Shown: positions 4,695 through 27,944 of the stretch, one piece after another | Numbering within the stretch: the first letter of the stretch is position 1 | How the letters are laid out: every line of letters begins with the position of its first letter | Source: a virus | Taxonomy: Duplodnaviria > Caudoviricetes | Reading direction: 5' to 3' (one strand) | IMG/VR virus record: IMGVR_UViG_3300032296_001520 | Coordinates: 1-59,488 of that record | DNA length: 59,488 bases | The notes under the pieces: model-generated | The model's database searches: none | Seen by the model: the letters and a program-made list of their open reading frames with translations, nothing else | What the model was told of the DNA's origin: nothing | Made by a program: the position numbers and the translations under genes

Positions 4695-4925
4695 CTAAAT
4701 CCCCGTGTTCGCCGCCGCCTTTTTCGCGTCACCGCACTTGTCGATCGCGGTCACGGCGGGTGTGTCTGTGTTCAAGGCTACGGCAAGGGTGCAGACGCCC
4801 CAGCCAAAGCCATCGATCACACCTTTTCTGTGTCCTTCTCGATAGGCGAGGCCAGCTGCGACCACCGCCATCGCAAAGGCAAGCATCAGAGAGAAAATGG
4901 CGGACGTTTTCTTAGGGGCGGTCAT
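4695..4925 (-). CDS. Hypothetical membrane protein
   Basis: N-terminal hydrophobic helix. Confidence 0.6.
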   Translation of the reverse strand: MTAPKKTSAIFSLMLAFAMAVVAAGLAYREGHRKGVIDGFGWGVCTLAVALNTDTPAVTAIDKCGDAKKAAANTGI

Positions 4926-6307
4926 GATGATGCCACTTCCGGGAACTGACGCACCTGCAATCCTAGCGGGAACGCTTCAATGGCGTGGATGGCCTTTGAG
5001 CCGCCGCTGGAGAGTTGTTTGACGAAAACAGCGGTGCCTGTTTCGCGGCATTGATCGACAATGCTTTGCGCCCATTGATTCGCCATCGGGCGCGCGCCGG
5101 GGCCGCTTTCGGCTCCCACGATTACCCAATTGATAGGCTGCTGATCTGGCATGGAACCATCATCACAACAGCCTGTAAGGCTATTCACACAAAATCCCGG
5201 GTAATATTGAATTTCCCTCAAATCCAACGGCCCCAGCAATGGCTCGGCGCTGATGAAGCGGATGGCGGCGGGTGTCTCTAATAGGTTTTGAATGCGCTCG
5301 TCTGCACGTTCTTGATCCTCGACGCTGACGCCAAGCCATACCGCAGCCAGCGGCCACTGGAACGGCAGATCGATCACCCACTGTTTTCCAGTAATGATGT
5401 TCCGAATTTGAGTGTCGGAAACTGGGAAGTCTTTAGCGATGGAATAAGCGGCCTCACCCTTCGATGCACGGTCGCGGATCGCCGCTACCTGATCTCCAGA
5501 AAGCTTCGAATATCGGCGGAAACTCCCATGTCGCTTGCTGTCCTGCCAGTTGTCGGACTGATCACCCCATGCGAGGTTCGCGATGGCATTGTTGCCAGCG
5601 TTCCCGTCAAGGTGCCGCCCTTGACAATCGACGGTCGGCGGCGGACCGTCGAAGGCATTGAGCACGATGCGATGGACTAACATCCGCTCGCCGCGCCTCG
5701 GACCGCCCTCGCGGAACAACGGAACGCGAAGGTGGCCCGCGTCACCGGCGGTCGGGCTAAGACGTTTTCGCTTGCCACGCTTGTCGGAATAGACATGCCC
5801 GTGCGAGGACACGAGATATCCGGGGAACCCATCGACGTTGCGAAGTTCCTCCGGCCCATCTGGTGTGGCGTCGAGCGCTGCCATTGCGCGAGCAATGCGG
5901 AACGGCGTTTCAGGATTCCCAACATAGTCCCGCATCCGCTTTGGTCGCTTGGTCAGGATCATATGCGTGTGCTGTGGCGTGAGCGCGCAGACGGCAAACA
6001 CCTTGTCGATCCATTCATTTGGCACCGCGTCATGGAACAGGTCACCATGCGCGTTCCAGAATATCTTGCGCGGTTCCCGCCATTTGAGCGGCTGCATCAA
6101 TTGCGCTTCATTCAGGCGCACAGTGCCATTCCAGACAGGCCCGGCCTTGCTCTGTTGTGTCAGCCCGGCGCGGCTTGGGTGATTGCGCAGGCGCGTTCCT
6201 GCCAAGCGCATGGCATAGCAGTTGGTGCAGCCCGGTGAGATAACAGTGCAGCCGTTGACGGCATTGACCGTTGCGTCGGCCCATTCGATTTTGGTTTTAT
6301 CGGACAT
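4922..6307 (-). CDS. DUF5131 (phage Gp37/Gp68-like) protein with an internal NUMOD4-HNH-HTH insertion
   Basis: T.IEW.D.T.N...GCT.ISPGC.NCYA, DLFH..VP, LTKRP.RM, VWLGVSVEDQ, F.S.EPLLGP, WVIVG.ESG..ARPM and FVKQ motifs. Confidence 0.85.
   Translation of the reverse strand: MSDKTKIEWADATVNAVNGCTVISPGCTNCYAMRLAGTRLRNHPSRAGLTQQSKAGPVWNGTVRLNEAQLMQPLKWREPRKIFWNAHGDLFHDAVPNEWIDKVFAVCALTPQHTHMILTKRPKRMRDYVGNPETPFRIARAMAALDATPDGPEELRNVDGFPGYLVSSHGHVYSDKRGKRKRLSPTAGDAGHLRVPLFREGGPRRGERMLVHRIVLNAFDGPPPTVDCQGRHLDGNAGNNAIANLAWGDQSDNWQDSKRHGSFRRYSKLSGDQVAAIRDRASKGEAAYSIAKDFPVSDTQIRNIITGKQWVIDLPFQWPLAAVWLGVSVEDQERADERIQNLLETPAAIRFISAEPLLGPLDLREIQYYPGFCVNSLTGCCDDGSMPDQQPINWVIVGAESGPGARPMANQWAQSIVDQCRETGTAVFVKQLSSGGSKAIHAIEAFPLGLQVRQFPEVASS
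5378..5850 (-). mobile_element. In-frame HNH homing-endonuclease-like module
   Basis: VDGFPGYLVSSHGHVYS (NUMOD4-like), VHRIV..AFDG...RHLDGN..NN...NL.W....N..D (HNH), KLS..QV..IR...IA..F.VS...I.NI..GK.W (HTH). Confidence 0.75.
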
Positions 6308-6488
6308 TTTGGGTTCCTTCCTCTGCCAGCGCCTTGACCTGATCGGGATAGTCACGGGCCACGCTTGCTGGCGTGTGATCGGTAAATGGGTCGCTTATTG
6401 TGAGATCAGCGCACAGAGCCTCGGCAGCGCGGCGGTGGGCTTGGGCGAATTTCTGTGACCAGCTAATGTGTTTGGCGCGGGCGGTCAT
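6297..6488 (-). CDS. Hypothetical protein
   Basis: 63-aa ORF; AAGGGA RBS. Confidence 0.55.
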   Translation of the reverse strand: MTARAKHISWSQKFAQAHRRAAEALCADLTISDPFTDHTPASVARDYPDQVKALAEEGTQNVR

Positions 6489-15646: not shown

Positions 15647-15664
15647 TTTCTAAACTCCCTTTTA

Positions 15665-15726
15665 TGGCCTATCTCGTCAGTGGCGGGCAGCCAGCCCCTA
15701 CCAGACGGGCTTGCGCCCGTTTCGAT
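15665..15726 (-). ncRNA. Hammerhead ribozyme, type II with pseudoknot (copy 2)
   Basis: Minus strand: AUC-GAAA-CGGGC-GCAA-GCCCG-UC^-UGGUaGGG-gcUGGCUg-CCCGCCA-CUGACGA-GAU-A-GGCCA; stem I differs in sequence from copy 1 but still pairs; predicted cleavage between 15704 and 15703. Confidence 0.9.
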
Positions 15727-15728
15727 TG

Positions 15729-17832: not shown

Positions 17833-18089
17833 GTAAGCCGGATCTGAAGGTTGTCGGGGAGATTAGCCCACCGGATTACCGTGATGCGGTGAAGATGCTG
17901 CGTAATTTGGCGGATGACATTGAGGCGGGGGAATTTGGTGCGGTGAATTCGCTTGTGCTGGTTCGTTTTGGAGATAATGGCTTGCAGGTTCATGTAGGTG
18001 GGCGCGATTCGGACTTCGGGACTGCGATGTTGCTGTTGACGGCGGGTGTTAACAAGCTGACTGGGCCGCTGTTAGAGCACGGCGAGTGA
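17829..18089 (+). CDS. Hypothetical protein
   Basis: LRNLADDIEAGEFG motif; coupled to TerL. Confidence 0.65.
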   Translation: MSKPDLKVVGEISPPDYRDAVKMLRNLADDIEAGEFGAVNSLVLVRFGDNGLQVHVGGRDSDFGTAMLLLTAGVNKLTGPLLEHGE

Positions 18090-20614
18090 GCGACGACGCT
18101 GGCACACTGAAGGCGCTGATGGAGGAGCTGCTGCTGCGGGAGGAGGCGCAGCAGTCTCTAGCGAAGTACATTGAATATGTGAGCGGGCTGAAGCCGCCGA
18201 AGCACATCGAATTGCTGTGTGAGAAGCTGGAAGCCGTAGCGGAAGGTAAGATTAAGCGCCTGATGATCAGTATGCCACCGGGGCATGCGAAGGCTCTGGC
18301 GCTCGATACACCGATACCGACGCCAGATGGCTGGCGCGTGATGGGCGAACTGCGTGTTGGTGATTATGTGTTTGATGAGAAGGGTGCGCCGACGCGGGTT
18401 GTTGGCGTCTCTGAGGTTTGGCGAGACCGTCCGGTGTATCGCGTGACGACGGCTGAGGGTGATGAGATTATTGCGGATGAGGCTCATGAGTGGACTGTGC
18501 GCCGCTGTCGCAAGCGCGATGTTTGGAAGACGTATGAAACAGGCGAATTGTATCGCAAGCAGGAGGAAGGGCAGCGGCCAGCGAAGGTCATGACTGCGGG
18601 AGCCCTTCAGCTGCAGCCGAAAGAATTTTTGATTCATCCGTATGTTTTGGGTTGCTGGCTTGGTGATGGAACATCGACGACGGCTCAATTTACGTCGATG
18701 GACGAAGAGATTATTGAACGCCTGCACGCGATTGAAGGTGGCGATTTAAGGATTGCGACGCAGCGCAGGGGCCGGGCGATTGCGTTTAGGATTGGTCCGA
18801 ACGGATTGATGGATCGGGAGGCGTGTCTGGCGACGCGGCTGCGTAAAATCGGCGTTATGGGTAATAAGCACATACCAGATACGTATTTCTGGGGGTCAGA
18901 AGAGCAGAGATGGGATTTGCTGCATGGCCTGATGGACACGGACGGGACGGTGAGCAAAGCGGGGCAGGCGACGTTTTATGCATCGAATGAGCGTCTAGCG
19001 CGCGATTTTCAGCAGTTAGCGTTTTCACTGGGGTTGAAACCTAAGCTGTCGTCGGGGCAGTCGAAGCTATATGGAGTTCAGCATAAAACGTGCTGGCGGG
19101 TTTCGTTTTACTCGGCGAATGCGGCTTGGTTGCCAAGGAAACGGAAGCGCGCGCGTGACGCCGATTACTATAAATATCGTCATCTGAAGTTTGAGCCCGC
19201 TGGATTTGCCGATACGGTGTGTATTGAGGTTGAGGCGGAGTCTCACCTGTTTTTGTGTGGGCGGTCGATGGTGCCGACGCATAACAGTTTCACGGCGTCG
19301 CAGCACTTTCCGGCGTGGTATTTGAGTAAATACGGGAAGAAGAACCTGATCTGCGCGACGCACACGCAGGAGCTGTCGGATAGCTTTGGTTTGAAGGTGC
19401 GTAATCTGATGAAATCGGACGAGCACAGGAAGGTTTTCCCGGAGGCTGGGATCAGTGCGGATAAGACGGCGGCTGGCGAGTGGATGACGCTGGATGATGG
19501 GTCGTATAAGGCGACCGCTGTGGGCGCGTCGGTAACGGGTCGTCGCGGTCACATGCTGATCGGGGATGATTTGCTGTCGGGGATTGAGGCGGCGGAGAGT
19601 GAGAGTCACCGCAAGAAACTCTGGGCATGGTATAACAGCGATTTCTATACGCGGCGTGTGGACGATGACACGGCGATCATCCTGATTGGGACGCGCTGGC
19701 ACTTGGGCGATCACTTCGGGATGCTGGATCAGGAAGAGCGGGACGGCACGGGCGAGAAGTGGGAGCGTGTAATCCTGCCAGCGCTGGCTTTGGAGAACGA
19801 TCCTCTGGGAAGAGAGCCGGGCGAGGCGTTGTGGGAGTCGCAGTTTAGCCGAGAGAACCTTGAGAAGATCCGGCAGCGCTCATCGACGACGGCGCGGATG
19901 TGGTCGTCGTTGTATCAGCAGAACCCGGTGGTGGATTCGGGCGGCATTATTGACGGAACGTGGTTTAAGTGGTGGCGGCAGCCTGAGCCGCCGAAAATCC
20001 AGTATGTCATTCAGGCATGGGATACGGCGCTGACGGCGAATAAAACTTCCGCATATAGCGCGAGCACGACGTGGGGCGTGTTTGAGGACGATAACGGAAT
20101 TCCGAATATCATATTGCTATCGGCATGGCGGGATCGGGCTGAATGGCCAGTGCTGCGGCGGATGGTGCAGCGAATGGCGAATGATTACCGAGACGATAAC
20201 TATAAGCTGCCGATTAAGCCGAAGTCTGGGCGCAAGCCGGATACGATTTTGGTAGAGGCTAAGGCGAACGGGCAGATGCTGATCTTGGATCTCGCGAGGG
20301 CGGGGATTGTGGCGACGCCGTTTAACCCAGATAAGCACGGCGATAAGATTGCGCGCGTTCGGTTAGTCACGGATTTGATTGAGAACGGGCGGGTATGGCT
20401 TCCGGCAGTAGGCCCGACGTATCAGCAGTTGCGGAAATGGGCTGAGGAATTTTTGCAGCAGTGCGTGCAGTTCCCGGCTGCGGATTCGCGTGACTGGGTG
20501 GACACGATGACGATGGCGCTGTTGAGGATTAAACAGTCGGGCTGGGTCTCGAATACGGAAAACCCGTATGAGGAGGTTTATGATACGCCAAGAGAGGCTG
20601 TCGCGTTTTATTGA
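18086..20614 (+). CDS. terL: Terminase large subunit with intein
   Basis: RLMISMPPGHAK|S Walker A, TGRRG..LIGDD Walker B, IGTRWH.GD, LYQQNP, QAWDTA nuclease and D.VDT.TMAL motifs. Confidence 0.95.
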   Translation: MSDDAGTLKALMEELLLREEAQQSLAKYIEYVSGLKPPKHIELLCEKLEAVAEGKIKRLMISMPPGHAKALALDTPIPTPDGWRVMGELRVGDYVFDEKGAPTRVVGVSEVWRDRPVYRVTTAEGDEIIADEAHEWTVRRCRKRDVWKTYETGELYRKQEEGQRPAKVMTAGALQLQPKEFLIHPYVLGCWLGDGTSTTAQFTSMDEEIIERLHAIEGGDLRIATQRRGRAIAFRIGPNGLMDREACLATRLRKIGVMGNKHIPDTYFWGSEEQRWDLLHGLMDTDGTVSKAGQATFYASNERLARDFQQLAFSLGLKPKLSSGQSKLYGVQHKTCWRVSFYSANAAWLPRKRKRARDADYYKYRHLKFEPAGFADTVCIEVEAESHLFLCGRSMVPTHNSFTASQHFPAWYLSKYGKKNLICATHTQELSDSFGLKVRNLMKSDEHRKVFPEAGISADKTAAGEWMTLDDGSYKATAVGASVTGRRGHMLIGDDLLSGIEAAESESHRKKLWAWYNSDFYTRRVDDDTAIILIGTRWHLGDHFGMLDQEERDGTGEKWERVILPALALENDPLGREPGEALWESQFSRENLEKIRQRSSTTARMWSSLYQQNPVVDSGGIIDGTWFKWWRQPEPPKIQYVIQAWDTALTANKTSAYSASTTWGVFEDDNGIPNIILLSAWRDRAEWPVLRRMVQRMANDYRDDNYKLPIKPKSGRKPDTILVEAKANGQMLILDLARAGIVATPFNPDKHGDKIARVRLVTDLIENGRVWLPAVGPTYQQLRKWAEEFLQQCVQFPAADSRDWVDTMTMALLRIKQSGWVSNTENPYEEVYDTPREAVAFY
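18293..19285 (+). mobile_element. Class 3 intein (331 aa) with LAGLIDADG homing endonuclease
   Basis: Starts ALALDTPIPTPDGW, block B ADEAHEW, block F TVCIEV, ends PTHN|S; PYVLGCWLGDG and LLHGLMDTDG endonuclease motifs. Confidence 0.92.
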
Positions 20615-24627: not shown

Positions 24628-25671
24628 ATGTCAGAAGACACAGAAATTTCAGAACTTCCGTTGACCGAAGATGGTCCAACTGAAGATGTGGACATTGAAA
24701 TCACCGAAGAGGATCTTGGTGAAAGCTTGGCCGATTATCAGGAAAGCGAACCTGAAGAACAGGAGCCTGAACAGGAGCCTGAAGAAGCGGTCGTCGAAGA
24801 GGAGTCTGAAGAGGAGGAGGCTCCGAAACGTAAACGCTCACCTGAAAAGCGTATAGCCGAACTGGCGCGTAAGGCGGCTGACGCCGAACGACGAGCGCAG
24901 GAGGCTGAGGCAAAAATTCAGCAGGTCGAGCAGCAACGCCATCAATCTGATCTGGCGATGATGACGCACTATGAGCAGCGCCTTCACGGTCGTGCAGAAG
25001 AGGTGAAGCGTCAGCTTATTGACGCTCACTCCATTGGGGATAGTGAACGAATCGTTGAGCTCCAAGGTGAGTTTTTCAAGCTTCAATCTGATCTTAATCA
25101 GATCGACTCATGGAAGGCGCAGCAGGAGCTTAACGCGCCTCAGCCCAAGCAGGCAGCCGAGGCTCAGGCGCGTCAAGTAGAGGGGCAGCCTCAGCCAACT
25201 CTGGAGCCTCGCACGGCCAACTGGATACAAAAGAACCCTTGGTTTCAGCCAAACTCAAGCGACTTTGATCCTGAAATGCACGAGGAAGCTACGATTTATG
25301 CCCGCCGAATTGAACGGCGTTATCGCTCTGAGGGAAGAGAGGATGAAATTGGCGGAGTTGATTATTTCACGGAGATTGATCGTCACATGCAAATTGAGTT
25401 TCCTGACGCATTTAGCGAGCGATCAACTCCATCGAAAAAGGTTCCTCCAATGAGTCGTCAATCGAATGTCGCCCCCGTTGGGCGAAGTGCAAATCCGGGG
25501 CAGCCGGCAAAGAATACCAAGTCGATCCGGCTGACGGCTGACCAACGGCGCATGGCGCATCAGTTGGCGCAATCAGGGGCTATTAAAAACGCAAAGGGTG
25601 GCCGGATGACTGAGGTGGAGGCGGAAAAATATTACGCCGTTCACATGATGAAACAAAATAAAGGAGCATAA
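24628..25671 (+). CDS. Scaffolding protein (putative)
   Basis: Acidic N-terminus, coiled coil, W...NPWF, C-terminal IRLT..QR..A motif; upstream of capsid genes. Confidence 0.7.
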   Translation: MSEDTEISELPLTEDGPTEDVDIEITEEDLGESLADYQESEPEEQEPEQEPEEAVVEEESEEEEAPKRKRSPEKRIAELARKAADAERRAQEAEAKIQQVEQQRHQSDLAMMTHYEQRLHGRAEEVKRQLIDAHSIGDSERIVELQGEFFKLQSDLNQIDSWKAQQELNAPQPKQAAEAQARQVEGQPQPTLEPRTANWIQKNPWFQPNSSDFDPEMHEEATIYARRIERRYRSEGREDEIGGVDYFTEIDRHMQIEFPDAFSERSTPSKKVPPMSRQSNVAPVGRSANPGQPAKNTKSIRLTADQRRMAHQLAQSGAIKNAKGGRMTEVEAEKYYAVHMMKQNKGA

Positions 25672-25673
25672 TA

Positions 25674-26153
25674 ATGGCACGAGCATCAAGAGTCTCGCAG
25701 AGCCGAGCAGCAGAATCACGCGAGTCGGGGATGCGCAAGCGCCCTGAAACTCACTTCCAGTCCAAGCTTTACGTTCCCAAGGACAAGATCCCCTCAGGGA
25801 TGACGTACGCTTGGGTTCGCGAGTCAACCCTCAATGAGCCCGATCCAGACAACATGACAGATCGCATGATCAGGGGGTGGTCTCCCGTCCCTGCATCTCG
25901 TCACCCTGAGATGGTGCCCCCTCCCCTTCCGGGCTACGAAGGCTTGGAGGTTCAGGTTATTCGTCGCGGAGGCCTAATGCTGTGCGAATGCCCTGAGCAT
26001 GAAGTTCGAGAGCGCAATGAAGATCGCGATCTGGAAAACATTGAAACACTGCAAGACGTGGCATGGACTGGTCAGAGCGACCCGAACCTACCTCGTTTTG
26101 AAGATAAGGATAGCGGTGTCGGGTTTGAGCGTGTCACATCGTTTAAGGACTAA
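25674..26153 (+). CDS. Conserved head-module protein
   Basis: G..Y.WVRES.....D..N......GW.PV.A..HPE and GGL.LC motifs. Confidence 0.75.
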   Translation: MARASRVSQSRAAESRESGMRKRPETHFQSKLYVPKDKIPSGMTYAWVRESTLNEPDPDNMTDRMIRGWSPVPASRHPEMVPPPLPGYEGLEVQVIRRGGLMLCECPEHEVRERNEDRDLENIETLQDVAWTGQSDPNLPRFEDKDSGVGFERVTSFKD

Positions 26154-26162
26154 GCTCCGGTC

Positions 26163-26229
26163 GCGGCGGGGGCTTGCTCCCGCCGTGCCCAACTGCCCCG
26201 CTCTGGTGACGGGGAGGGGTCTTTTTATT
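26163..26229 (+). terminator. GC-rich hairpins and T-tract; probable terminator
   Basis: GCGGCGGG..CCCGCCGT hairpin, then CCCCG..CGGGG followed by TCTTTTTATT. Confidence 0.45.
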
Positions 26230-26234
26230 CTGAG

Positions 26235-26263
26235 TTGACATTAATTTAATAATTAGATAGCAT
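26235..26263 (+). promoter_or_regulatory. Sigma70-like promoter for the capsid operon
   Basis: TTGACA-17 bp-TAGCAT. Confidence 0.7.
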
Positions 26264-26272
26264 TTTGAAATT

Positions 26273-26356
26273 CGATGGCCGTAACGTATCGCGCCAACAC
26301 GATTGTGGTCACGTACCCACAGAAAATTGTCGATTGCCGTAACGTACCGGCAGAAA
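26273..26356 (+). ncRNA. Three tandem hairpins with conserved U(A/C)ACGUA(C/U) loop in the capsid-operon leader
   Basis: CGAT-GGCCG-TAACGTAT-CGCGCC; CGAT-TGTGG-TCACGTAC-CCACA-GAAA; CGAT-TGCCG-TAACGTAC-CGGCA-GAAA. Confidence 0.7.
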
Positions 26357-26386
26357 CCACCATTAACTTTAGCATGGAGAAACCGT

Positions 26387-26983
26387 ATGTCTATCGGAAC
26401 GAATGCGCCCAATGGTTTTCAGCCGGTCAGGAAACTTGACGGCTCTGCTTGGACTGGCGCGACAAATTCTTATCAAATTGCCAATGCTTATGCGACAGCG
26501 CTGTATCGTGGAGATCCTGTCACGATTCTTGCGGATGGTACGCTTGGCGTTGGCGTTGCTGGCGCGGCTTGCGTTGGCGTGTTCTGGGGTGTTAAGTTTA
26601 TCGACAACACAGGCCGTGTCCGCTTCGAGAATTTCTGGCCTGGCAATCCGGGCGTGCTCACTGGCTCGACTGTGGAGGCTCTTGTAATTGACGACCCGGA
26701 CACCGTGTTCTCAGTTCAGGAAACCAACAACCTCGGCGCTGCGGGCACGAACCTGACTCTCGCGGATGTTGGCCTCAACATCAACTTCTTGTACACTGCT
26801 GGAACGCCAGCAACTGGCAACTCGGCTGTTTCTATCGACAACACCACAGATGCGGTTACAAGCACGTTGAACTGCAAGATCCTTTCGCTTGATCCAACAC
26901 CGGGCAACGCCGTCGGGGCTTTTGCCAACTGGCTCGTTATCTTTAACAACCACCGTTACCGCTCCGGCATTGCTGGCGTCTAA
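26387..26983 (+). CDS. Capsid decoration/cement-like protein
   Basis: MSIGTNAP.G..PV.......T..Y.IA......Y.GD.V; directly before the major capsid gene; GGAG RBS. Confidence 0.7.
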   Translation: MSIGTNAPNGFQPVRKLDGSAWTGATNSYQIANAYATALYRGDPVTILADGTLGVGVAGAACVGVFWGVKFIDNTGRVRFENFWPGNPGVLTGSTVEALVIDDPDTVFSVQETNNLGAAGTNLTLADVGLNINFLYTAGTPATGNSAVSIDNTTDAVTSTLNCKILSLDPTPGNAVGAFANWLVIFNNHRYRSGIAGV

Positions 26984-27006
26984 TATCGGGATCATGGAGA
27001 CATATT

Positions 27007-27912
27007 ATGGCTATTAATACAACCGCAATCCGCGATCTACTCCGGCCCGGTTTGGCCGCCGTCTTCGGCGACTATCCGATGTATCCGGGGCAGTGGTCGG
27101 AAATCTTCGAGAAGCACACGTCCGATAAGGCTGTTGAAATCGAAGTCGAAGTCAAGCTGCTCGGCTTGGCTCAGATCAAGGCAGAAGGCGCTTCGACCGC
27201 TTACGGCGAAATGGGCCAGCGCTATGTGACGAACTACGTGAACCGTTACACCAGCATTGGTTTCATCATCACCCGTCAGGCGATCAAGGACAACCTGTAT
27301 CAGTCTTCGTTCCCGCTTCAGGCGAAAGCTCTTCGCCAGTCGATGGAGCAGACCAAGGAAGTGCTCGGCGCATCTGTGCTGAACAACGGCTTCTCGGCCA
27401 GCTTCCCGATTGGTGATGGTCAACCCCTGTTCTCGACGGCTCACCCCATCGACGGCGGTACGGTTGCCAACACCTTTACGGTGCAGGCTGATCTGAACGA
27501 AACGTCGCTTCAGGACGCCATCGTTGGCGTTCAGCGCTTCCGTGACGCTGCGGGCCTCCGCATCATGACGAAGCCGACGAAGCTCATCGTTCCGGCTGAA
27601 CTGCAGTGGACGGCAACTCGCCTGCTCCAGTCGCAGTTCCGTGTCGATACGGCGAACAATGACATCAGCGCGATTTACAACAACTCGGCGGTTCCGCAGG
27701 GTCATCGCGTCAACATGTTCTTGACGGACACCAGCTCTTGGTTCCTCATGACGGACGCCCCGAACGGCTTTAAATATTACGAGCGTGAAGCTCTTGAAAC
27801 CGATGTCTACACGGATTTCGACACCGATAACCTCAAGGCGAAAGCTATTGAGCGTTACTCCTTCGGCTGCTCGAACTTCCGTGCGGGCTGGGGTTCGCAG
27901 GGCGCTTCCTAA
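27007..27912 (+). CDS. Major capsid protein
   Basis: L.PGL..VFG, K.EG, GF.IT..AI.DNLY, GDG.PLFST.HP, P.KLIVP and K..ERYSFG motifs; strongly biased codon usage. Confidence 0.9.
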   Translation: MAINTTAIRDLLRPGLAAVFGDYPMYPGQWSEIFEKHTSDKAVEIEVEVKLLGLAQIKAEGASTAYGEMGQRYVTNYVNRYTSIGFIITRQAIKDNLYQSSFPLQAKALRQSMEQTKEVLGASVLNNGFSASFPIGDGQPLFSTAHPIDGGTVANTFTVQADLNETSLQDAIVGVQRFRDAAGLRIMTKPTKLIVPAELQWTATRLLQSQFRVDTANNDISAIYNNSAVPQGHRVNMFLTDTSSWFLMTDAPNGFKYYEREALETDVYTDFDTDNLKAKAIERYSFGCSNFRAGWGSQGAS

Positions 27913-27920
27913 TCGGACTC

Positions 27921-27944
27921 AGGGGGTGGCATCTGTCACCCCCT
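27921..27944 (+). other. Stable hairpin after the capsid gene (no U-tract)
   Basis: AGGGGGTGGCA-TC-TGTCACCCCCT. Confidence 0.55.

What the first reader, a model, noticed from the sequence alone, without database searches (positions are those of the whole stretch)
26235..26387. Three hairpins with a conserved 8-nt loop at the start of the capsid operon transcript
Seen: immediately after a TTGACA-17-TAGCAT promoter come three units of CGAT + stem + T(A/C)ACGTA(C/T) + stem, two of them followed by GAAA. The stems differ (TGTGG/CCACA, TGCCG/CGGCA, bulged GGCCG/CGCGCC) but each pairs, while loop and flanks are conserved. This is the signature of a repeated protein-binding RNA or ssDNA hairpin, and I do not recognise a named family. 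Inference: possible roles are antitermination or loading sites, autogenous control of capsid synthesis, or a sponge for a host RNA-binding protein.
Basis: partly seen in the sequence, partly recalled or inferred. Interest (0 to 1): 0.72.

Follow-up and report, generated by a model that had tools for sequence, protein, structure and literature searches.

The report
Fixed-loop RNA hairpins before capsid genes
Just before its two most abundant shell-protein genes, an uncultured freshwater phage carries three small RNA hairpins with free-changing stems and a fixed eight-base tip, an uncatalogued control signal whose reader is unknown.

Summary
Three units (YCGA, a 5-7 bp stem, the loop U-N-A-C-G-U-A-Y, the return stem) start at 26273, 26300 and 26331. 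They lie between a terminator plus TTGACA-17-TAGCAT promoter and the ribosome site of a decoration-like protein gene (26387-26983), which is followed by the major capsid gene (27007-27912).

The window is a complete 59.5-kb HTVC023P-like podophage genome, and the motif occurs nowhere else in it. In 74 distinct homologous leaders from related viral contigs, 72 carry 2-3 such hairpins. They show 37 different stem variants, strong compensatory change, an invariant G-C closing pair and a fixed loop. No Rfam family matches.

A sister lineage (capsid protein 47% identical) has hairpins in the same leader with a different fixed 8-nt loop (C-Y-C-G-G-Y-G-N). Neither loop occurs in the other lineage.

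Best reading, at about 0.5: these are docking sites on the capsid-operon mRNA for a lineage-specific reader, probably a protein, that sets the message's stability or translation. No reader was found. Rivals are loop-loop kissing (both loops hold a self-complementary CG-centred core), nut-like antitermination, a decoy, and a DNA-level role. It is a real, undescribed RNA motif; its function is inferred.

The parts
26159..26190 (+). First GC-rich hairpin after the stop codon of the 159-aa upstream gene (25674-26153)
   Evidence: Fold of 26150-26234; inverted repeat I1
26195..26229 (+). Intrinsic terminator: stem 26195-26220 followed by a U-run at 26221-26229. It closes the upstream head-assembly operon.
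   Evidence: A GC hairpin plus T-run precedes the promoter in the relatives' upstream regions printed (read by eye).
26235..26263 (+). Sigma-70-like promoter: -35 TTGACA (26235-26240), 17-nt spacer, -10 TAGCAT (26258-26263). Predicted start is near 26269-26271 (inferred).
   Evidence: TTGACN at -39 to -44 from the A of the first CGA in 65 of 67 distinct upstream regions; -10 end to that A is 11-13 nt in 62 of 65.
26273..26296 (+). Hairpin unit 1: CGA, bulged 6-bp stem, loop UAACGUAU (26282-26289)
   Evidence: model R1 16 bits, E 0.021
26300..26322 (+). Hairpin unit 2: CGA, 6-bp stem (outer U.G), loop UCACGUAC (26309-26316)
   Evidence: R1 33 bits; closing-pair probability 0.95
26331..26353 (+). 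Hairpin unit 3: CGA, 6-bp stem (outer U.G), loop UAACGUAC (26340-26347)
   Evidence: R1 34 bits
26354..26386 (+). Unstructured A/C-rich spacer and ribosome site (GGAG 26376-26379) before the ATG at 26387
   Evidence: The last hairpin ends 30-54 nt before the ATG in the 74 distinct leaders.
26387..26983 (+). 198-aa decoration/cement-like capsid protein, first gene of the regulated operon
   Evidence: phrog_37556, unknown function. AlphaFold model mean pLDDT 94.3. The best Foldseek rows are capsid decoration chains of Sf11, HFTV1, TW1, T1 and Pam3, all weak (E 0.012-0.4).
27007..27912 (+). Major capsid protein (301 aa), second gene of the operon
   Evidence: phrog_371; Pfam Mu-like_gpT and Phage_capsid_4; annotated capsid proteins in 22 phage records

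Best explanation
The three units are RNA hairpins at the 5' end of the messenger for the decoration-like protein and the major capsid protein, the two proteins a virion needs in the largest numbers.

Each unit shows the same single-stranded YCGA and the same eight-base loop (U-N-A-C-G-U-A-Y on a G-C closing pair) on a stem whose sequence is free to change. I read them as two to three docking sites for one sequence-specific reader. Binding would set how long the capsid message lives or how well it is translated.

Shown here: the hairpins, their conservation, their position between promoter and ribosome site, and the lineage-private loop. Inferred: that the strand read is RNA, that a reader exists, that it is a protein, and what binding does.
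For: (1) Structure under selection.
- 192 of 198 occurrences of G-T.ACGTA.-C in 80 related loci plus the window have at least 4 flanking complementary pairs.
- On 45 distinct units, 95.6% of cells pair against 56.0 +/- 2.8 in shuffles and 32-52% for slid partners. Four of 5 pairs change on both sides, one column shows UA 12, AU 11, CG 11 and GC 9, and the closing pair is G-C in 45 of 45.
- There are 37 distinct stem variants in 74 distinct leaders.

(2) Fixed loop and flank.
- All 202 canonical loops read T[C/T/A]ACGTA[T/C, G twice].
- In a search blind to the loop sequence, 170 of 193 hairpins preceded by CGA have 8-nt loops, nearly all of this motif.
- C4, G5 and A6 of the flank are at least 90% conserved.

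(3) Copy number: 56 of 74 leaders have 3 hairpins, 16 have 2 and 2 have 1.

(4) One place per genome. The model finds the motif only in this leader in the window and in five other 81-100% complete genomes (14 hits, one cluster each).

(5) Transcript context.
- The terminator, promoter and hairpins keep a fixed distance (65 of 67 upstream regions).
- The region is not coding. Leader lengths fall in all three residues modulo 3 (37, 21, 16), and in-frame stops lie at 26 different distances in 71 of 74 leaders.

(6) Private loops. In the sister lineage the same leader holds hairpins with the loop C-Y-C-G-G-Y-G-N.
- 40 stem variants occur in 50 distinct leaders.
- 96.7% of cells pair against 66.4 +/- 1.9 in shuffles, and 5 of 5 pairs change on both sides.
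- The window's loop occurs in 0 of 50 of those leaders, and theirs in 0 of 74 of the window's lineage.
- More distant relatives have neither the motif nor room for it.
Against: - No reader was identified. 30 small ORFs gave no RNA-binding Pfam family. The downstream protein has a decoration-like beta fold. The upstream 159-aa protein has an arginine-rich N-terminus, but its family is also present in relatives without hairpins.
- The distance from CGA to the loop varies by 5-7 nt, which is awkward for one rigid protein touching both.
- The hairpins do not cover the ribosome site (30-54 nt upstream of the ATG), so simple occlusion is unlikely.
- Thermodynamics alone do not favour the three-hairpin fold.
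- RNA versus single-stranded DNA rests on context and a weak 14:7 excess of internal G.U over A.C.
- The units in both alignments (A1, A3) were picked for having at least 4 flanking pairs, so the percentage paired is inflated by construction. The sequences are also related by descent, so counts are not independent events.
Confidence: 0.5

Rival explanations
1. Self-contained RNA device without a protein reader. The loops pair with each other (kissing) through their self-complementary core, within one leader or between messages. This compacts the 5' end and protects it from 5'-end-dependent decay.
For: - The fixed loop holds the self-complementary ACGU, which extends to UACGUA in the 42 of 202 loops with U at position 2.
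- The sister lineage's different loop also holds a self-complementary CG-centred core: CCGG, or UCGG if G.U is allowed.
- There are nearly always two or more hairpins per leader (72 of 74).
- The first hairpin lies within about 6-8 nt of the predicted 5' end.
Against: - Four base pairs make a weak kiss.
- Kissing does not explain the invariant U1, A7, Y8, the G-C closing pair or the conserved YCGA flank.
- By my estimate, not a tool result, an 8-nt loop holds a Watson-Crick palindromic tetramer about one time in four by chance.
- Two leaders have a single canonical hairpin.
- No tool here can score kissing complexes.
Confidence: 0.18
2. Processive antitermination site, working like a nut or put element. 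The promoter-proximal hairpins, alone or with a bound factor, modify RNA polymerase so that it reads through pause and termination signals of the roughly 25-kb late operon that follows (26.3-51.3 kb, all + strand).
For: - The position is immediately downstream of a promoter and fixed relative to it.
- A long co-oriented gene array follows.
- A stable 8-bp hairpin sits right after the capsid gene (27917-27944).
- A short conserved single-stranded element 5' of each hairpin recalls the two-part layout of nut sites (recalled).
Against: - The loop has 8 nt rather than 5.
- There are three tandem copies rather than one.
- The operon is late or structural, not early.
- No N-like or Q-like gene was recognised.
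- The hairpin after the capsid gene has no U-run, so a need for antitermination is not evident.
Confidence: 0.12
3. Decoy or sponge. The abundant late leader titrates a host factor, for example a defence ribonuclease or an enzyme that reads loops, rather than regulating its own message.
For: - Several copies sit on what should be one of the most abundant late transcripts.
- Loops are private to lineages that may infect different hosts.
- Both loops carry an N-C-G triplet, as arginine anticodons do (my reading; speculative).
Against: - The loop is 8 nt, not the 7 of an anticodon loop.
- The position that would be the universal U before the anticodon is mostly C (148 of 202).
- The fixed placement between promoter and ribosome site of one operon, in every genome, fits cis control better than a free decoy.
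- No host is known, so no target can be named.
Confidence: 0.07
4. DNA-level element. The hairpins would be extruded in single-stranded DNA, or the palindromes would be read as double-stranded operators, for replication, recombination or repression.
For: - Each unit is an interrupted palindrome around ACGT.
- The leader is a mosaic of shuffled units (29 architectures in 74 leaders).
- Homing endonuclease genes are inserted nearby in some relatives.
- The phage encodes two DNA methyltransferases and an endonuclease VII-like protein.
Against: - The arms differ between the three sites of one genome while staying complementary. A dimeric DNA binder would do the opposite: keep the arm sequence and vary the centre.
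- 105 of 1088 stem pairs are G.U on the sense strand.
- The unit is asymmetric (5' CGA, U1 against Y8) and always in the sense orientation (3 forward, 0 reverse).
- The cumulative GC-skew extremes lie near 15 kb and 51 kb, not here.
- Stems of 5-7 bp with 8-nt loops make poor cruciforms (established knowledge).
Confidence: 0.05

Closest known systems
Lambdoid nut sites (boxA plus boxB hairpin, read by N protein); recalled knowledge
   Same: A promoter-proximal RNA hairpin with a free stem sequence and a fixed loop, preceded by a short conserved single-stranded element. The loop sequence is private to each phage group.
   Different: The loop here has 8 nt, not 5. There are three tandem copies rather than one per operon. 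The operon is late and structural. No N-like protein was recognised, and no need for antitermination was shown.
Translational operators of phage proteins (MS2, Qbeta and PP7 coat protein hairpins; T4 RegA, gp32 and gp43 operators); recalled knowledge
   Same: A small hairpin whose loop and a few flanking bases are read by a phage protein to set the synthesis of a structural or replication protein.
   Different: Those operators overlap or abut the start codon and occur once. Here 2-3 copies lie 30-54 nt or more upstream of the ATG, and no binding protein is known.
5'UTR-derived small RNAs of Pseudomonas phages, including one in the 5'UTR of the YuA major head gene (PMC10914365; passages read with 'find'; supplementary tables not seen)
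   Same: A conserved non-coding RNA segment at the 5' end of the major head gene message of a virulent phage, conserved within the genus.
   Different: Those RNAs are defined by premature termination and have no reported repeated fixed-loop hairpins. Here no terminator follows the hairpins.
CsrA/RsmA target leaders (several GGA-loop hairpins in a 5' leader); recalled knowledge
   Same: Several hairpins with the same loop motif in one leader, read by one small dimeric protein that controls translation and stability.
   Different: None of the 7 loop sequences listed contains GGA. The last site does not overlap the ribosome site. No CsrA-like gene was found among the ORFs scanned.
Fixed-loop hairpin arrays in capsid-gene leaders noted earlier in this scan (e1-6103936, e1-5948690, e1-6059891, e1-6011672); unchecked AI notes
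   Same: The same architecture: free stems, a fixed loop, 2-5 copies, in leaders of scaffold or capsid genes.
   Different: The loops differ (AYGG, GNGAU, GCGAY, A-rich) and the phage groups are unrelated. None of those claims was tested here.

Membership tests
Any Rfam 15 family | Match to a curated covariance model | tested here: not met
   cmscan of 25500-27200 at E up to 10 gave 8 weak matches. The best was 19.2 bits against a gathering score of 46, and none overlaps the three hairpin units at 26273-26353. The whole window at gathering scores gave only Hammerhead_II at 15663-15727.
Lambdoid nut site | boxB: 5-bp stem with a 5-nt GNRA-like loop | tested here: not met
   The loop has 8 nt in 170 of 193 CGA-preceded hairpins and 9 nt in 9. 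Stems are 5-7 bp.
Lambdoid nut site | boxA consensus 5' of the hairpin | not tested
   I know the consensus only from memory, so I did not search for it. The only conserved 5' element seen is YCGA.
Lambdoid nut site | Phage-encoded arginine-rich reader (N) and early-operon location | tested here: inconclusive
   The operon is structural. The upstream 159-aa protein has a periodic arginine-rich N-terminus, but homologues with basic N-termini exist in relatives without the hairpins.
RNA-phage coat protein operator | Single hairpin that contains or abuts the start codon of the repressed gene | tested here: not met
   The last hairpin ends 30-54 nt before the ATG in 74 of 74 distinct leaders; 72 of 74 have 2-3 copies.
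CsrA/RsmA binding site | GGA in the hairpin loop, with one site overlapping the Shine-Dalgarno sequence | tested here: not met
   None of the 7 loop sequences listed contains GGA. The GGAG ribosome site lies 23 nt or more downstream of the last hairpin in the window.
ANTAR-type dual-hairpin antiterminator target | Two hairpins with 6-nt loops, the second competing with a terminator | tested here: not met
   The loops have 8 nt. No U-run or terminator follows the hairpins.
5'-terminal stabiliser hairpin (ompA type) | Stem-loop within a few nucleotides of the 5' end of the message | tested here: inconclusive
   The predicted start is 2-4 nt before the C of the first CGA. This is inferred from the -10 position (11-13 nt from the end of the -10 to the A of CGA in 62 of 65). 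No 5' end was mapped.
Kissing-loop dimerisation hairpin | Self-complementary loop core that forms loop-loop pairs | tested here: inconclusive
   The self-complementary ACGU is present in 202 of 202 canonical loops, and CCGG or UCGG in the sister lineage. Formation of a kissing complex cannot be tested with these tools.

The most novel reading that the evidence does not exclude
Related phage lineages each carry a private eight-base RNA 'address' (U-N-A-C-G-U-A-Y in one, C-Y-C-G-G-Y-G-N in the other) on the message for their shell proteins. It is read by a co-evolving, still unrecognised phage-encoded RNA-binding protein, possibly one of the head-module proteins.

Together with the other fixed-loop arrays noted in this scan, this would define a widespread, undescribed class of post-transcriptional regulators that set head-protein supply in tailed phages.
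Probability: 0.3. Interest if true: 0.8.

Novelty: new variant of a known kind. Interest (0 to 1): 0.62.

Why it matters
How tailed phages set the very high and balanced output of capsid and decoration proteins after transcription is largely unknown outside a few model phages.

This element offers a clean, testable handle. It is a short RNA signal with strong comparative support. It is confined to one message per genome and abundant in freshwater viromes: 97 of 113 pattern hits in the viral contig collection are this locus. A sister lineage has kept the architecture while swapping the loop.

Comparative genomics plus a simple binding screen could therefore find a new family of phage RNA-binding regulators. 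If loop-loop pairing turns out to be the mechanism, it would be an unusual case of a kissing-loop device on a bacterial virus mRNA.

Tried and rejected
- **Rfam:** no family matches.
- **Literature:** a six-term search on phage capsid leaders with stem-loops found 0 papers. 'UACGUA' plus 'hairpin loop' found 6 papers, all unrelated by title and abstract. These two searches are the only basis for saying the motif is not in print.
- **Earlier notes of this scan:** nothing by place or by sequence.
- **Coding explanation:** the TTG-started ORF 26303-26983 is rejected. Leader lengths are not multiples of three and carry in-frame stops. The homologues' N-termini align to the ATG at 26387 (M1 invariant).
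- **Pattern hits outside the lineage:** 16 of 106 newly fetched viral loci are coding or other tandem repeats with no homologue of the three flanking proteins and, by eye, no hairpin array of this type. In prokaryote genome contigs only 3 of 119 stretches are this phage, on short contigs binned into MAGs, so they give no reliable host. Three others (L194, L211, L289) are identical tandem DNA repeats.
- **Distant relatives:** MW202675, HTVC027P, DSL-LC04 and HTVC023P gave no model hit in the leader. The three hits found lie elsewhere (13.9 bits at best).
- **Intermediate relatives via P0122:** only 33-35% identical matches, in the viral collection and the metagenome collection. Not informative.
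- **Reader hunt:** Pfam on 30 small ORFs and PHROGs on 30 larger ones gave no RNA-binding family. The ESM Atlas names only hypothetical viral clusters for the 159-aa protein.
- **Reads:** all runs are kept as contigs.
  - One metatranscriptome run (X20) holds a 313-nt contig in which 108 nt lying before 26361 run on into the decoration-gene start. The 30 letters shown next to that join resemble the 3' part of relatives' leaders printed.
  - The same run also shows a 92-nt loose end before 26374.
  - By my arithmetic both stop inside the first hairpin of those relatives, while a DNA-run contig goes on 156 nt.
  - This comes from one run, contigs cannot show RNA ends, and an RNA library may hold DNA. 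I do not count it as evidence.
  - Bins without cover and depth differences between genes are not interpretable.
- **Resemblance between the loop and the bases before the ATG** (a shared CGUAU): judged chance by my own rough estimate, and the sister lineage does not repeat it.
- **Thermodynamic support:** sought but not found.
- **Complex prediction:** not used, because it takes no RNA.
Full report
**What is there.** The window is a complete viral genome of 59,488 bp with direct terminal repeats.

The flagged stretch is the 233-nt gap between a 159-aa gene (25674-26153) and a 198-aa gene (26387-26983), which is followed by the major capsid gene (27007-27912). Reading 5' to 3', it holds:
- two GC-rich hairpins, the second a canonical terminator (26195-26220 plus a U-run);
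- a TTGACA-17-TAGCAT promoter-like site (26235-26263);
- three units starting at 26273, 26300 and 26331;
- an A/C-rich spacer, GGAG (26376-26379) and the ATG.

Each unit is CGA, then a stem of 6 pairs (unit 1 with a bulged C, units 2 and 3 with an outer U.G), an 8-nt loop T(A/C)ACGTA(C/T), and the return strand.

**Is it more than chance?**
- The full pattern occurs three times in the genome, all here and all on the + strand. It occurs zero times on the reverse strand and zero times for the reversed control.
- The loop octamer alone is not rare (5 found, 3.0 +/- 1.8 expected). The two other copies have no stems.
- Folding energy gives no support. The leader folds no better than shuffles (z +0.86). 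The three-hairpin fold (-18.9 kcal/mol) is less stable than an alternative long-range fold (-24.2). Closing-pair probabilities are 0.48, 0.95 and 0.48.
- The case therefore rests on comparison.

**Genome context.**
- PHROGs and Pfam name a large terminase with a homing-endonuclease insert, an SU10-like portal, a GroES-like protein, a scaffold-like protein and the capsid protein. They also name tail and ejection proteins, an endolysin, a primase, a helicase, a RecET-like pair and two DNA methyltransferases.
- No phage RNA polymerase and no tRNA was found.
- The capsid protein is 44-47% identical to those of an uncultured freshwater phage record (MW202675), Pelagibacter phages HTVC027P and HTVC023P, and phage DSL-LC04. 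Those records share the gene order GroES-like, about 330 aa, about 160 aa, about 190 aa, capsid. HTVC023P-type phages are described as widespread podoviruses (PMC9599517, abstract seen in the listing).
- The 198-aa protein has no Pfam family. Its model is confident (mean pLDDT 94.3). Its best structural neighbours are capsid decoration or cement chains of Sf11, HFTV1, TW1, T1 and Pam3, all with weak scores (E 0.012-0.4). I call it decoration-like.
- Among the same contigs it is 72-84% identical where the capsid protein is 96-98%.

**Relatives keep the hairpins and change the stems.**
- A capsid-protein search of the viral contig collection found 158 relatives; the best 80 were kept.
- With the loci from a later pattern scan, 143 locus records (many contigs fetched twice) gave 74 distinct intergenic regions.
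- 56 of these have three canonical hairpins, 16 have two and 2 have one.
- The stems come in 37 variants, arranged in 29 architectures.
- The loops are TCACGTAT 97, TCACGTAC 51, TTACGTAC 23, TTACGTAT 19, TAACGTAC 6, TAACGTAT 4 and TCACGTAG 2.
- Across all 80 loci and the window, 192 of 198 occurrences of the loop with its G-C closing pair have at least four flanking complementary pairs.
- On an alignment of 45 distinct units, 95.6% of cells pair, against 56.0 +/- 2.8 in shuffles and 32-52% with slid partners. Four of five pairs change on both sides. One column carries all four Watson-Crick pairs in near-equal numbers. The closing pair is G-C in all 45.
- A search for hairpins that ignored the loop sequence found 193 preceded by CGA. 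Of these, 170 have 8-nt loops, nearly all of this motif, and 9 have one-base-longer variants.
- Caveats: the aligned units were chosen for having stems, so the percentage paired is partly built in. The sequences also share descent.

**Where else?**
- The covariance model finds only the three units in the window. In five other 81-100% complete genomes of the lineage it finds one cluster of 2-3 hits each.
- A three-loop pattern scan of the whole viral collection gave 113 stretches. Of 106 newly fetched loci, 90 carry the flanking genes and 16 are unrelated repeats, mostly coding. The lowest full-length capsid identity among the 90 is 92%.
- In 596 Gb of prokaryote contigs, only 3 of 119 hits are this phage.
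- The motif is therefore private to one abundant freshwater lineage and to one place in its genome.

**A transcript leader.**
- In 65 of 67 distinct upstream regions, TTGACN lies 39-44 nt before the A of the first CGA, after a terminator.
- The best -10 hexamer (TAATTT in 22) ends 11-13 nt before that A in 62 of 65.
- This places the predicted start 2-4 nt before the first CGA. That step is inferred; no 5' end was mapped.
- The region is non-coding.
- Some relatives have a reverse-strand HNH endonuclease gene inserted between the terminator and the promoter, which leaves the leader intact.
- Sense-strand G.U pairs make up 105 of 1088 stem pairs. At internal positions G.U outnumbers A.C by 14 to 7. 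This is weak support for RNA over DNA.

**The sister lineage.**
- Relatives of MW202675 gave at least 600 pattern hits, of which 80 loci were kept. They have the same layout (terminator, promoter, leader, decoration-like gene, capsid gene), seen for MW202675.
- Their leader hairpins carry a different fixed 8-nt loop, C-Y-C-G-G-Y-G-N, on a C-G closing pair.
- There are 40 stem variants in 50 distinct leaders: 37 leaders with two hairpins, 12 with one and 1 with none.
- 96.7% of cells pair against 66.4 +/- 1.9 in shuffles, and five of five pairs change on both sides.
- The window's loop is in 0 of 50 of those leaders, and theirs is in 0 of 74 of the window's lineage.
- The marine relatives and DSL-LC04 have gaps of only 17-78 nt and no motif.

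**How it most likely works.**
- A free stem, a fixed loop, a fixed closing pair and a fixed single-stranded flank, repeated 2-3 times on one message, is the classic look of a docking site for a sequence-specific reader.
This fits a phage-encoded protein, although a host factor of different hosts would do as well.
- The sites do not cover the ribosome site. I therefore favour control of message stability or of ribosome loading from a distance over simple occlusion.
- None of this is shown. No RNA-binding family was found in 30 small ORFs. The arginine-rich N-terminus of the upstream 159-aa protein is shared by relatives without hairpins.
- The variable distance between CGA and the loop is a difficulty for a single rigid reader.

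**Rivals.**
- Loop-loop kissing. Both private loops hold a self-complementary, CG-centred tetranucleotide (ACGU; CCGG or UCGG), which keeps this rival alive.
- Nut-like antitermination. Promoter-proximal placement before a 25-kb co-oriented operon keeps this alive.
- A decoy role and a DNA-level role are less likely, for the reasons given under the rivals.

**Compared with what is known.** The element works like a phage RNA operator (nut boxB, coat-protein and T4 operators, CsrA targets). It fails the defining features of each that could be tested: loop length, copy number, position relative to the start codon, and GGA. It matches no Rfam model.
- Earlier unchecked notes of this scan describe similar arrays with other loops in unrelated phages.
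- I found no description of this motif in two literature searches.

**Verdict.** This is a real, strongly conserved, uncatalogued RNA motif: a new variant of a known kind. Its reader and function are still open.

Noticed in passing
window 15663-15727 (- strand): Match to the type II hammerhead ribozyme family (RF02276), 39.1 bits against a gathering score of 37, E 0.00018. It lies in the early, minus-strand gene block.
   Followed up: no
L320-L399 (sister lineage), about 170 nt before the decoration-like gene; L084 2280-2406: The same leader position holds two hairpins with another fixed 8-nt loop (C-Y-C-G-G-Y-G-N) and 40 stem variants. By eye, a short anti-Shine-Dalgarno hairpin (CUCCU, 4-nt loop, AGGAG) follows the second one in many of these leaders. 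That hairpin was not counted.
   Followed up: partly
L084 2150-2230 (MW202675): By eye, a tRNA-like sequence sits in the gap before the capsid-operon promoter of the sister-lineage reference, followed by a terminator and a TTGACA promoter. No tRNA finder was run on it.
   Followed up: no
L039 1737-2249 (-) and L009 1120-1668 (-): In relatives with a 730-890-nt gap, a reverse-strand HNH homing-endonuclease-like ORF (170-182 aa) is inserted between the upstream gene's terminator and the capsid promoter.
   Followed up: partly
window 18086-20614: The large terminase carries LAGLIDADG and Hom_end domains at residues 273-341, between its N-terminal part and the ATPase-nuclease part. This is probably an intein.
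   Followed up: no
window 26387-26983 compared with 27007-27912, in loci L004-L083: The decoration-like protein is only 72-84% identical among contigs whose capsid protein is 96-98% identical, so this surface protein evolves much faster.
   Followed up: partly
leaders of relatives, e.g. L013-L075 (printed): Many leaders of the window's lineage carry extra small hairpins, with 3-5 bp stems and loops containing (A/G)GGU, after the second and third fixed-loop units. The window's own leader lacks them. This was seen by eye; covariation was not counted.
   Followed up: no
window 27917-27944: A stable 8-bp hairpin without a U-run lies directly after the capsid gene stop codon, before the next gene's ribosome site.
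   Followed up: no
window 4922-6355 (-): A 477-aa protein of an unknown-function PHROG family (phrog_2045) has an HNH endonuclease domain inserted at about residues 130-327.
   Followed up: no
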